Part shown: in pieces, positions 35,631 through 39,654 of the stretch
Layout: each line of letters begins with the position of its first letter
How positions within the stretch are numbered: position 1 is the first letter of the stretch
NCBI GenBank assembly: GCA_951406725.2
Contig: OX597816.1
Location: forward strand, 60,884,001-60,948,000
Direction: 5' to 3'
DNA: 64,000 nucleotides
Origin: Octopus vulgaris
Lineage: Eukaryota
Program-made: the position numbers and the translations under genes
Notes under the pieces: generated by a model
What the model saw: only the letters and a program-made list of their open reading frames with translations
Database searches by the model: none
Told to the model about the DNA's origin: nothing

Positions 35631-37621
35631 TATGAATATGCACATATACATACACGTATATGTCTGTGTGTGTGTATTAAACAATAGTATTCATCATGTC
35701 TTTATATTTTATTGCTAACTTTTAGGCTTTTATTTTAGTGAATGCATTTATAACAAAATAACATTGACTGAAATAACCAAAGTACACCGATTTCAAGAAA
35801 GATCTTACAAAACACAGGGAATCAATAACAACAATCAGATCAAATTTATTTCATTATTATTAAGCAATCTGCACTTATTCTTCATGACAGCTAAATTTGA
35901 GAAAATAGAATTAGTAAAATAATGAACTAGATATGTATATATGAAAAAGAATTCAATATTTCCATTTGGACCAAATAAAAGAATTTGCCAGGTTAAAAAT
36001 AGAACCACGTAAAAATAGCTTACAAAAATAATTCAAGTTATAAATCTATTATTGTCTAGGCTTTAAGGTAAGGCTATTTGTTAAACAACTTATTTAGAAG
36101 ATATTTTGCTTTGTATTAACAAAGACACAGATAACAACTCGCAATTATCCTCAGTTGTGCAAAGTAGTTCATACATGTAATCCCTCTTTTCTTTATGAAG
36201 TAAATTGAATTCCTTGAAGGAACACAACATTTCCTTATATTGAATGCTTTTAAGATAGTACTATTAACCTTTGTACAGAACCTCTTGAACAATATGTTAC
36301 TAAGGATTTGGATCAGAGAGAGGGAGTAACCTGGGAAACAGAAATAACTCAGGCTCTCATACTCAAGATGTATCATCTAACTCTTCTAGCTACTCAAGGT
36401 ATATAGAAAAAAGCAAGAGATTAACAACTGTTTTATTGTGGCAAAAGCAATAAACTATCAAACATATTTCAAGCACTGCATTGTATTTTAAATACTCCAC
36501 TTAGCAACAATACAAATGATTGGGTGATAATGTAGTTTTGCTTCCTATTAAGTAAAAGAAATACATTCAGATATACAAAATGTCATAAGACCAGCATGAG
36601 AAAAGGAAAGACAAAATATGTCTCAAAATAGCATTGCAATGTCAGAATGGTGCCATATAATAACCAAGTCGATTGAATTTAAGCCATATTATCCTAGCTT
36701 ATAAGGATAATTATTATAAAGGAATTATTGTATTTACTCATGCATAATGCAAGAAATTTACAAAACACCATGGCCAAAATTGGTGGAAAGCATTATATTC
36801 ACAGATAAAATATATTACTGACTTTTAGGTACAAAATGCAGGCAGTCCTATTATATATGAGATCACATTGTGTTCAAGTAAATACGGTAGGCTCAAAATA
36901 AAATTATGAAAATGCACTGAAATCTCATTGCTATATGGAATCACTCAATCGCTATTGATATTTCATGATTTTCATGATAATAAATGTGAACTGAACAGAA
37001 GACAAAAATAATCCAAGCACAAACTGATCACTATTATATACCGAATGAATCTATATAAGATGATTAGAGCTTTTTACTAAATGGATCCATATATTGGCTA
37101 AAATATAAAAATTAGTATAAATGATTAAAACTTCATTGTGAATATAGCACTAGTCCATATAGTATGAAAGGAACTACTAAAGCTAGTATATTTTACAGGT
37201 TATAGTATTACAAATATAGCCAGATTCGTTTTAAAATGTAGTCCTTTGTTGTTTTCAGTTAGCAGTTGTTAACCATATTAATAATATAAAAGGCATATCT
37301 AATGTAATCATGAAATAAGTTACACTCTGATGGGTGCAGTAACAGTTTGGTGTGCAAGTTTATGTAACTGGAGTACAAGGTTTACAGATATTATTACAAC
37401 TTAATACAGAAGGAATGCAAAGAGTTATCAAATTAGATGTTAATTATATTCATCTATAAAGAATGCCTGATTCCAAAAAGTTTATTACTATTATTATGAG
37501 CACTATCATGTACTCATACCAGAAACTGTCTTTACATTTTATTACTTTTATCTTTTACTCATTTCTGTCATTGGATTGTTGCCATGCCAAGACATGGGGT
37601 TTTGTCAAACAATTCAACCCC

Positions 37622-38385
37622 TGCAGTTTAAGAGATGAGGAATTATTTGTCCTCATCTTGTTTGTTGTTAAAACATTTCGGCTGATATACCCTCCAGCCT
37701 TCATCAGGTTTATTGGGAAAATTTTGAACCTGGGTTCTCATTCCTAAGGTATTTTTCGATATTATTATTATTGAACTCAGAATGTTGGGGTTAGTAGCCC
37801 ACGCTCTTAACCACTACGTCATATGCCCATGGGCAATTATAGAGTGAATTTTAGGGTTTATAAATCTAATATTTTCCTATCCTTCTTTAATACCGGTTTC
37901 CATATGCTATTCATATCTGCACTCAGTCTGCTTAGGAGGTTGTTGTGACCTAGCTTCTTTTAGTTTTCATATTAAATAATAGACAGAACACCACTGGAAA
38001 ATATGAAAACTAAAAGAAGCAGCACATATGTTAGGATACAACAACCTCCTAAGCAGACCGAGTACAGATATGAAGAGTGTATGGGAACTGGTATTAAGGA
38101 AGAATTTGAAAATATGAGATTTATAAGCCCTAAAATTCACTCCATAATTGACCATGGGCATATGGCGTAGTGTTTAAGAGTGTGGGCTACTAAGCCCAAG
38201 ATTCCGAGTTCGATTCCAGGCAGTAATCTGAATAATAATAACAACATCAAAAAATACCTTTGGAATGAGAACCTAGGTTCAAAATTTACCCAAGACACTT
38301 GATGAAGGCTGGAGGGTATATCAGCCGAAACGTTGCATTAACAACAAGTAAGATGAAGACGACTATCTGTCAAATGTAAATAAAG
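37622..38385. mobile_element. Palindromic element: two divergent tRNA-like heads, each followed by a hammerhead motif
   Basis: Inverted arms at about 37645-37973 and 38000-38365 with a 26-nt spacer. 9-bp TSD ttcaacccc at 37613-37621 and 38386-38394. It interrupts a family-B SINE. Confidence 0.8.
38294..38339 (+). ncRNA. Minimal type-I hammerhead ribozyme motif (mutated); mirror copy at 37668-37712 on minus
   Basis: gacac (C>T)TGATGA aggctg gagggtatat cagcc GAAA cg tt gcatt. The minus-arm copy retains CTGATGA aggctg..cagcc GAAA. Confidence 0.65.
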
Positions 38386-38823
38386 TTCAACCCCTTATTT
38401 TAAAGTCTGGTACTTATTCTGTTGGTCTGTTTGTTGAACTACTGAGGTACAGGGACATAAGCAAACCAACACCAGCTGTTAAGTGATAGTGAGTGACAAA
38501 CGCAATGTAAACATACACACATATATGTATATATATTTCTTCTTTTTTTCTCTTCTTGCTTCCCTTTTGTTGTCTTGCTGTTCTTTTCTTGCTTTGCAAG
38601 GTACTTGGTAACCTCACTGTGCCATAGCTGATGTTAGAGCTTGTCATGGCCTTACAGTTTGCTGAATCCTATCAAACTGTCCAACTCATGCCAGCATAGA
38701 AAATGGATGTTCAATGATGATGATGATACACACACGTCTCATCAGTGGATCATATATCCGAAAAAGAAGCACACTCTAAAAGTTAGAAAAGTAATGTATT
38801 TAGAGGAAGTTAATTATATGGCT

Positions 38824-38879
38824 GTGACCAATGGTTTCACATCCATAAAGCCTTATAGATGATTCATCAGACTCCAATG
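38824..38879 (-). ncRNA. Type-I hammerhead ribozyme motif in a 220-bp palindrome
   Basis: Minus strand reads cattggagt CTGATGA atcatctataag gctttatggatgt GAAAC cattg GTC ac: intact core, long stem II, stem III ACC/GGT and a GUC cleavage triplet. A mutated mirror copy is at 38911-38979. Confidence 0.7.
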
Positions 38880-39654
38880 ACCATGGGCTTTGGAGTTATA
38901 TGTCAGCAGCCATTGGAGTCTAACAAGTCATCTATAAGGTTAAGCACTTTATGGATGCGAAACCATTGGTTACTTTATGACTGGCTATATAATTAACTTC
39001 CTGTAAATATACATACACACACAATGGGCTTCTTTCAGTTTCCATCTATCAAATCCACTCAGAAGGCTTTGATTGACCTGGGGCGACAGTAGAAGATATT
39101 TGCCCAAGGTGCCACATGGTGGGACTGAACCTAAGATCACATGGTTGGGAAGCAACCTACTTAATATACAACCATGCCTGCACCTGTTACACCTTTTACA
39201 ATAATGTTCCTTAATTTCTCTCCAGACCTTCCTTTAATAGAAATTAGGTATGAGGAAGATATGAAGAACAATGCAATGAGAAGTATCAACCATCTCAGCC
39301 AATCATGAACCACCAAAACAATATTTAGAATAGATAATTATATTTATAATTATATCTACATTTTTTTCTATAAATATGATGGCTTTTTCTTGCAACAATT
39401 ATTTTTGTTTATATAGCTGGGTAATGCTCCTCTTATTGCTAATCACTTAGTTGTGAAGTGGAAAATGGAACCTGTTTATGTTCAACCAGATAAATCTGCA
39501 GTAATTAATAAAATCTGTAAAATAAGCTTGTGTGCTATGAGGGCAGGCTCTTACAAATGTCAGAACTCATCTCTCTTTTTGGCACATAACATTTTCAAAT
39601 CATCCTTATTCCACTTGTATTTTTTTGCTGATGCATTTATTTATTTATTTGCTC

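What the first reader, a model, noticed from the sequence alone, without database searches (positions are those of the whole stretch)
37622..38385. Self-contained palindromic element: two divergent tRNA-like Pol III promoters, each reading into a hammerhead ribozyme
Seen: inverted arms of about 330 bp around a 26-nt spacer, bounded by a 9-bp TSD (ttcaacccc) and splitting an older SINE, so the whole palindrome appears to have inserted as one unit. Each arm carries a tRNA-like head pointing outward (A box tggcgtagtg.tt, loop gggctactaa.ccc, B box gagttcgattcc at 38156-38228; the left-arm B box is partly deleted). About 140 nt from the start of the head is a minimal hammerhead. The two arms together reconstruct GACAC-CTGATGA-aGGCTG-loop-CAGCC-GAAA-CG-TT, with the 3' stem-I strand (expected GTGT-like) mutated in both. 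Known: minimal HHRs with a palindromic stem III (AACGTT) occur in Penelope-like element LTRs and retrozymes and are thought to cleave as dimers; inverted LTR arrangements are typical of Penelope-like insertions. Inference: this is a SINE/Penelope chimera whose Pol III transcript is end-processed by a ribozyme. I do not recognise it as a described family.
Basis: partly seen in the sequence, partly recalled or inferred. Interest (0 to 1): 0.8.

Follow-up and report, generated by a model that had tools for sequence, protein, structure and literature searches.

The report
Penelope retrotransposon with captured tRNA promoter

Summary
The palindrome, target-site duplication (10 bp), tRNA-like head and minimal hammerhead are real. 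This copy is not a stand-alone SINE. Both arms begin about 115-150 nt inside the endonuclease-coding end of a Penelope-like element (PLE) ORF, and the 26-nt 'spacer' is ORF sequence. Inverted 5' arms, a one-sided tail and a hammerhead are known PLE traits; both ribozymes here are mutated. The family is the interesting part. It has at least 1,352 copies. Its pseudo-LTR holds an A/B-box head between one unit's stop codon and the next unit's ATG. Of 55 arms that reach the head, 46 stop within 32 nt of its 5' end, where ordinary SINEs of this genome start; so do 5 of 7 arms that run on into the ORF start. No TTTT is shared among copies on the 2.7-kb sense strand, unlike six control PLE sequences. 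Best reading: a captured Pol III promoter supplies most templates, yielding a PLE-mobilised SINE-like class. Ribozyme 3'-end processing is not supported: 66 of 70 copies run past the cut site. There is no direct transcription evidence. New variant of a known kind.

The parts
37535..37612 (.). One half of an older interspersed repeat split by the insertion
37613..37622 (+). Left target-site duplication TTCAACCCCT
37623..37973 (-). Left arm: inverted, 5'-truncated PLE copy (r1421 to tail; r = position in natural copy L031:4901-6800)
37624..37644 (-). Remnant of the PLE 'tail', present at this end only
   Evidence: tail at exactly one end in 32 of 42 palindromic copies
37667..37712 (-). Left hammerhead, decayed (core intact, stem III changed, 3' stem-I strand deleted)
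37773..37828 (-). Left tRNA-like head; A box 37821-37811, B box half deleted
37858..37973 (-). Decayed 3' end of the PLE ORF (left arm)
37974..38126 (+). Decayed C-terminus of the PLE ORF (endonuclease end), including the 26-nt 'spacer'; stop at 38124-38126
38149..38160 (+). Decayed mini-palindrome at the head's 5' edge (TGCCC-AC-GGGCA in intact copies)
38156..38230 (+). Right tRNA-like head; A box 38163-38173, B box 38208-38216
38231..38243 (+). (AAT)n run after the head
38265..38384 (+). Start of the next tandem unit's ORF (ATG 38265); the frame runs through the hammerhead; has stops here
38294..38339 (+). Right minimal type-I hammerhead, decayed (C3>T, stem I broken); predicted cut after 38334
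38386..38395 (+). Right target-site duplication
38396..38504 (.). Other half of the older repeat

Best explanation
The window element is a dead, twice 5'-truncated, head-to-head insertion of a Penelope-like retrotransposon whose pseudo-LTR carries a tRNA-type A/B-box head that likely works as an internal Pol III promoter and likely supplies most of the family's templates. Shown: family identity, anatomy (stop - head - (AAT)n - ATG - hammerhead - two fixed 3' ends - rest of ORF in tandem copies), inverted arms, one-sided tail, TSDs, the 5' cliff at the head, and no shared TTTT. Inferred: (1) the head was captured from a tRNA-derived SINE; (2) Pol III starts about 11 nt before the A box and, meeting no T-run, reads through hammerhead and tail into flank or ORF; (3) the PLE protein nicks both target strands and starts reverse transcription at two internal sites about 55 and 80 nt past the hammerhead on uncleaved RNA, as shown in vitro for anole Poseidon (PMC11167929); (4) the two cDNAs join head to head, giving a palindrome with a tail at one end and a roughly 10-bp TSD. 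This copy came from a longer RNA that included the upstream ORF end (tandem read-through or a host transcript), so it is one of the minority not started at the head.
For: RVT_1 hits in longer copies. The C-terminal half aligns to a full PLE ORF with an intact YVGETGR motif and to proteins named GIY-YIG endonuclease. The 3' segment sits directly before the ORF start in 12 of 25 loci holding the ORF's N-terminal part; 121 such junctions genome-wide. In 70 copies chosen only by the hammerhead core, 39 have an inverted 5' arm; 46 of 55 arms reaching r1600 stop in r1568-1600, i.e. 0.037 stops/nt against 0.002-0.003 on either side. The cliff holds in 10 of 11 non-palindromic copies, and a like mini-palindrome at r1692-1703 gives only 0.005/nt. 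5 of 7 ORF-junction arms that reach the head stop at r1569-1580; L200 is a near full-length copy starting at r1575. An ordinary tRNA-headed SINE of this genome starts 11-12 nt before its A box (13 copies), which here would be r1572-1573; its head is 74-76% identical to this head over about 62 nt. No T4 site is shared by more than 12% of copies over 2,697 nt; 0 observed against 4.1 in synonymous-codon shuffles, P=0.005, while six control PLE sequences hold 3-12 each. TSD of 8 nt or more in 20 of 42 copies against 1.3 in mispaired flanks; tail at one end in 32 of 42, at both ends in 0.
Against: No direct evidence of Pol III occupancy or of an RNA 5' end. 24 of 54 non-ORF heads carry the TGCCCNN arm of the mini-palindrome upstream, and 6 are perfect fold-backs, so hairpin-assisted joining contributes to the cliff. 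The T4 result is moderate and was noticed post hoc: Fisher P=0.039 on T4/T3, one control reaches P=0.061, and G4 runs are also absent at the 50% level. Host tRNA-Lys genes contain an internal T4, so T4 is not an absolute stop here. The ORF-junction test rests on 7 arms. Pfam GIY-YIG does not hit this family's own EN. Pol III RNAs are uncapped (recalled), so the protein probably needs another transcript. All 70 sampled copies are from one contig.
Confidence: 0.68

Rival explanations
1. Ordinary Pol II-driven PLE. The head is an inert SINE fragment fixed in the pseudo-LTR, and the 5' cliff arises because cDNA ends fold back or anneal at the TGCCC-AC-GGGCA mini-palindrome (or because a Pol II start happens to lie there).
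For: Fold-back junctions occur (6 perfect and 18 partial of 62 heads); RNA reads leaving the head's 5' end continue as its inverted copy at 73-77% agreement (table 7). D. virilis Penelope has a TATA-less, LINE-like internal promoter (PMC2377424, abstract).
Against: The cliff persists in 10 of 11 non-palindromic copies, and in 18 palindromes only one arm ends at the head. A second 5+2+5 palindrome gives no cliff. The offset matches the host SINE start. It does not explain the missing T-runs.
Confidence: 0.2
2. One reading: a self-contained SINE/Penelope chimera whose Pol III transcript is cut by the hammerhead to a RNA of about 179 nt that is the working or transposing species.
For: Head start to predicted cut is 38156-38334 = 179 nt with no T4 in the right arm. 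Schistosome Sm-alpha pairs a Pol III promoter with an active hammerhead (PMC6765202, passages). There is a mild excess of 5' ends just after the cut site: 18 of 90 within 0 to +14 nt, four of them one duplicated event.
Against: 66 of 70 copies include 30 nt or more past the cut. This copy contains ORF, and both its ribozymes are mutated. In anole Poseidon, uncleaved RNA is the insertion substrate and cleavage needs protein (PMC11167929). No begin/end pile-up at the site, though those libraries are not suited to short RNA.
Confidence: 0.07
3. The tRNA-like head is cut by RNase P out of longer Pol II transcripts, creating the 5' ends.
For: 19 of 54 non-ORF heads begin at +1 to +3.
Against: The head does not fold as a cloverleaf (z +1.89 and +0.15; no ARAGORN or Rfam call), and 24 heads keep 7 nt upstream of +1.
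Confidence: 0.05

Closest known systems
Penelope/Poseidon-clade PLEs (D. virilis Penelope; Anolis Poseidon PAc)
   Same: Single RT + C-terminal endonuclease ORF, partial tandems forming pseudo-LTRs, inverted 5'-truncated arm, one-sided tail, minimal hammerhead overlapping the ORF start (PMC8557442 passages; PMC11167929 parts 1-2; PMC4209133 passages).
   Different: A tRNA-type A/B-box head sits just before the ATG, most copies start at it, and the sense strand has no shared T4. The one dissected PLE promoter is described as TATA-less and LINE-like (PMC2377424 abstract).
Schistosoma Sm-alpha / Sj-alpha SINE-like elements
   Same: tRNA-derived Pol III promoter followed by a type-I hammerhead, high copy number (PMC6765202 and PMC2770079, passages).
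   Different: Those are described as non-coding, often tandem, with ribozyme release of monomers, and the passages read name no autonomous partner. Here the head is inside a coding PLE, copies are dispersed and palindromic, and templates were uncleaved.
TRIMp3 elements (Cassandra, Helenus, Ajax)
   Same: A small-RNA-derived Pol III promoter captured in the terminal repeat, probably by SINE insertion (PMC10886601, passages).
   Different: They are non-autonomous LTR elements of 311-1263 bp, and that paper argues their autonomous partners must use Pol II. Here the head lies in the repeat of the autonomous element itself, in a different retroelement class.
Animal non-LTR retrozymes
   Same: Type-I hammerhead, derived from PLE pseudo-LTRs (bioRxiv 10.64898/2026.07.22.740005, part 1 of 5 read).
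   Different: Retrozymes are tandem arrays; no tRNA head appears in the part read. These copies are single or inverted.

Membership tests
EN+ Penelope-like element | RT in a single ORF | tested here: met
   RVT_1 in L031, L150, L160; ORF of about 800 codons inferred from copy lengths; no intact copy seen
EN+ Penelope-like element | C-terminal GIY-YIG endonuclease | tested here: inconclusive
   No Pfam GIY-YIG hit on this family; aligns across the EN region to L248; homologs P0091 and P0097 are named GIY-YIG
EN+ Penelope-like element | Partial tandems forming pseudo-LTRs | tested here: met
   12 of 25 loci; 121 junction matches
EN+ Penelope-like element | Inverted 5'-truncated arm and one-sided tail | tested here: met
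   39 of 70 inverted; tail at one end in 32 of 42
EN+ Penelope-like element | Minimal hammerhead in the pseudo-LTR (extra base between 9 and 10.1, G10.1-C11.1, palindromic 15.2-16.2) | tested here: met
   against features listed in PMC4209133; decayed in the window copy
Penelope/Poseidon clade | Phylogenetic placement by RT tree | not tested
   No tree built; the label is inferred from 35-42% identity to L246-L253 against 24-40% to the GIY-YIG-positive families of this genome
tRNA-derived SINE | A and B boxes at tRNA spacing | tested here: met
   38163-38173 and 38208-38216; collinear with host tRNA-Arg genes, z about 8. The box consensus itself is recalled.
tRNA-derived SINE | Copies start at the head | tested here: met
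   Family: 46 of 55 arms. Not true of the window copy.
tRNA-derived SINE | Non-coding and LINE-mobilised, with a simple-repeat 3' tail | tested here: not met
   The body is the PLE's first codons; ends and inversions are PLE-type
tRNA-derived SINE | Transcribed by Pol III | not testable with these tools
   Only indirect signs
Active hammerhead ribozyme | Self-cleavage; covariation of stems | not testable with these tools
   Single family with too little variation for covariation; cleavage needs an assay
Non-LTR retrozyme | Tandem arrays with a hammerhead in each unit | tested here: not met
   No tandem array at the locus; sampled copies are single or inverted, with only a few partial tandems

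The most novel reading that the evidence does not exclude
An autonomous, protein-coding retrotransposon switched its replication template to RNA polymerase III. After capturing a SINE head in its pseudo-LTR it purged T-runs from its whole 2.7-kb sense strand, so that Pol III makes the full-length template, and the same promoter spawns a SINE-like swarm mobilised by Penelope machinery rather than by a LINE.
Probability: 0.33. Interest if true: 0.85.

Novelty: new variant of a known kind. Interest (0 to 1): 0.62.

Why it matters
SINEs are described as Pol III RNAs that borrow LINE machinery, and autonomous retroelements as Pol II-driven (PMC10886601, passages). This family links a tRNA head physically to an autonomous Penelope-like element and shows head-started copies with Penelope insertion marks. 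That offers a route by which promoter-plus-hammerhead elements such as schistosome Sm-alpha could arise. If Pol III reads the whole ORF, it would break the assumed length and polymerase limits and raise the question of how the protein is made. The fixed RNA start also makes PLE twin-arm joining directly testable.

Tried and rejected
ARAGORN and Rfam: no tRNA or hammerhead call; the miRNA hits are artefacts of the palindrome and of simple repeats. Independent head-only SINE: rejected as the main form, since 25 of 30 head-picked loci continue into the hammerhead body. Spacer as a distinct module: rejected. RNA: no RNA holder listed. Three raw RNA runs of a related species label laid on L200 show the family in RNA with equal depth in both directions, so they say nothing on promoter or strand, and no start/end pile-up appeared at head or cut site. 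One search used the wrong end of L149 and added nothing. A pile-up at r1769 was partly an artefact of the reference copy; remapping left only a mild excess. A crude A+B box scan of 8 loci of the other PLE families gave one pair, in an unrelated SINE, and none in 8 metagenome PLE loci, which mostly lack their pseudo-LTRs. Earlier scan findings: none in three look-ups. Literature: nine full-text searches listed no paper whose title or abstract start describes a PLE with a tRNA/Pol III head. The one supplement held for PMC13282606 lacks the two motifs searched, but its repeat library was not among the files, Repbase/Dfam could not be searched, and PMC5785218 was not held, so the family may already be catalogued.

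Full report
Observation. The region holds inverted arms at 37644-37973 and 38000-38365, bounded by TTCAACCCCT at 37613-37622 and 38386-38395, its only two occurrences in the window. The flanks are two halves of an older repeat that lie together in uninterrupted copies (L257, L258), so the palindrome inserted as one unit. Each arm has a tRNA-like head and a minimal hammerhead. Neither ARAGORN nor Rfam recognises them. The head aligns collinearly with host tRNA genes (best tRNA-Arg, z about 8 against shuffles, 30 genes), but as any tRNA shares the boxes this names no parent. Intact hammerheads show the extra base after A9, the G-C closing pair and the palindromic CG in helix III listed for PLE minimal hammerheads (PMC4209133 passages). 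Both window ribozymes are damaged.

Identity. The right arm had 5,677 first-look candidates in the 2.8-Gb genome (40 scored). Many copies continue upstream into coding sequence that hits RVT_1 and aligns through the endonuclease region to a complete PLE ORF from a metagenome contig. Homologs include proteins named GIY-YIG endonuclease and an Octopus sinensis protein at 74% identity, which suggests an octopus-like host. Pfam GIY-YIG does not hit this family itself. Against natural copy L031:4901-6800 (positions r), the right arm is r1397-1811 and the left arm r1421-1790 plus a tail remnant. The 'spacer' is simply ORF. In 12 of 25 loci holding the ORF's N-terminal part, the same head/hammerhead/tail segment runs straight into it, and 121 such junctions exist: this is a pseudo-LTR. 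The frame starts at an ATG just after the (AAT)n run and passes through the hammerhead. The head therefore lies between the stop of one unit and the ATG of the next. The clade label Penelope/Poseidon is inferred, without a tree.

Family anatomy. A 37-nt hammerhead core has 1,352 exact matches (reversed control 0) and a 34-nt head motif 1,186. I analysed 70 loci around the first core matches listed, all on one contig and chosen blind to their 5' ends. 39 of 70 have an inverted arm at the 5' end. In a second set picked by the head, 16 of 24 do, after dropping 6 overlapping or duplicate loci. Among 42 palindromes with both ends visible, 32 have the 25-30-nt tail at exactly one end and none at both, and 20 have a duplication of 8 nt or more against 1.3 (maximum 5) for mispaired flanks. 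Inverted arms and one-sided tails are described PLE traits (PMC8557442 passages), and in anole Poseidon the tail equals the distance between two internal RT start sites used on both nicked strands (PMC11167929, parts 1-2 of 4). So the palindrome is ordinary for this class.

What is unusual. Of 109 arms, 55 reach r1600 and 46 of these stop in r1568-1600: 0.037 stops per base against 0.002 upstream and 0.003 just downstream; about 4-12 would be expected. The (AAT)n run gives a weaker pile (0.008), partly an alignment effect. The cliff is seen in 10 of 11 non-palindromic copies; in palindromes 9 have both arms at the head and 18 only one. Another tRNA-headed SINE in the held sequences starts 11-12 nt before its A box (13 copies), which here predicts r1572-1573, and its head is 74-76% identical over about 62 nt. 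Among 90 of the 121 pseudo-LTR/ORF junctions, 7 arms reach the head and 5 stop at r1569-1580; one continues upstream and one is rearranged. L200 is a near full-length copy starting at r1575. Along a 2,697-nt natural copy covered by 12 or more (median 37) others, no T4 site is shared by more than 12% of copies, against 31 shared A4 and 9 shared C4 sites; shared G4 sites are also absent. Three nearly non-overlapping open stretches (2,463 nt) hold 0 T4 against 4.1 in synonymous shuffles (P=0.005); six control PLE sequences, four from another animal and two from this genome, hold 8, 12, 8, 3, 9 and 8 against 8.8, 9.7, 7.6, 5.9, 7.1 and 5.9. 23 of 30 host tRNA genes have a run of 4 or more T within 40 nt downstream, but tRNA-Lys genes carry an internal T4. 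This test was devised after seeing the pattern.

Against, and limits. The head's 5' edge is a mini-palindrome, and fold-back junctions are common (table 7), so hairpin-assisted joining shapes some ends; a similar palindrome at r1692-1703 shows no cliff. The RNA runs were not strand-informative. The ribozyme does not define the copies' 3' end: 66 of 70 extend 30 nt or more past the cut. A mild excess of 5' ends just after the cut site (18 of 90, four from one event) leaves occasional cleavage open.

Mechanism. Shown: anatomy, end statistics, T-run absence. Inferred: SINE-head capture; Pol III initiation and read-through; internal priming on uncleaved RNA; joining of two cDNAs. The window copy has ORF in both arms (1 of 39 sampled palindromes is like that), so it came from a longer RNA. 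One nearby locus (L255/L292, 3.2 Mb away) has a head-started single arm joined to the same half of the older repeat at the same junction as the left arm, with one shared non-CpG variant. It may be a retrocopy of an RNA started at this locus's left head, or a local duplication; independent insertions near that site also occur (L293, L294), so it is only suggestive.

Comparison and novelty. Membership in EN+ PLEs is met on four features and inconclusive on the endonuclease profile. The short class works like a tRNA SINE but fails the LINE-mobilised, non-coding criterion. The nearest precedents are schistosome Sm-alpha (Pol III promoter plus hammerhead; PMC6765202 and PMC2770079 passages) and TRIMp3 elements (Pol III head in a terminal repeat, non-autonomous; PMC10886601 passages). 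Two cephalopod repeat papers (PMC13282606, PMC8967140; passages) report abundant SINEs and PLEs but no such link in the passages read. Nine searches listed no paper on a PLE with a tRNA head, but repeat databases and most subscription papers were out of reach. Verdict: the locus is an ordinary decayed PLE insertion; the family is a new variant with a probable Pol III promoter (about 0.7) and a possible fully Pol III-read template (about 0.33). Interest 0.62.

Noticed in passing
L255/L292 (G000:C3:64112790-64113130): Head-started single arm fused to the same half of the older repeat, at the same junction as the window's left arm; possible daughter copy of this locus.
   Followed up: partly
L293:1550-1810 and L294:1558-2094 (reverse strand): Independent insertions at nearly the same site of the older repeat, each with a duplication of about 11 bp; L294 is a complete head-to-head double-head palindrome. 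Suggests a target hotspot.
   Followed up: partly
window 38797-39009: A second, unrelated inverted repeat (three arm segments of 26-29 nt, 86-93% complementary), MITE-like.
   Followed up: no
L231-L236: Young PLE family with an intact 781-aa RT + GIY-YIG frame in many copies and a long A-rich open frame directly upstream in a different frame; used only as a control.
   Followed up: partly
L031/L032 (G000:C17): Four near-identical (96-98%) copies of a block on C17 holding this PLE next to fragments of an unrelated LINE-like RT element; segmental duplication.
   Followed up: no
L295: Cluster of three tRNA-Arg(TCG)-like genes beside a copy of the family.
   Followed up: no
P0001-P0120: A large set of 55-68% identical PLE proteins from ENA assemblies of another host; DNA unavailable, the best material to test whether the head and T-run loss are shared.
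   Followed up: no
L099, L244, L300 and three places in the window: Another tRNA-headed SINE whose head resembles the captured head (68-76%); candidate donor.
   Followed up: partly
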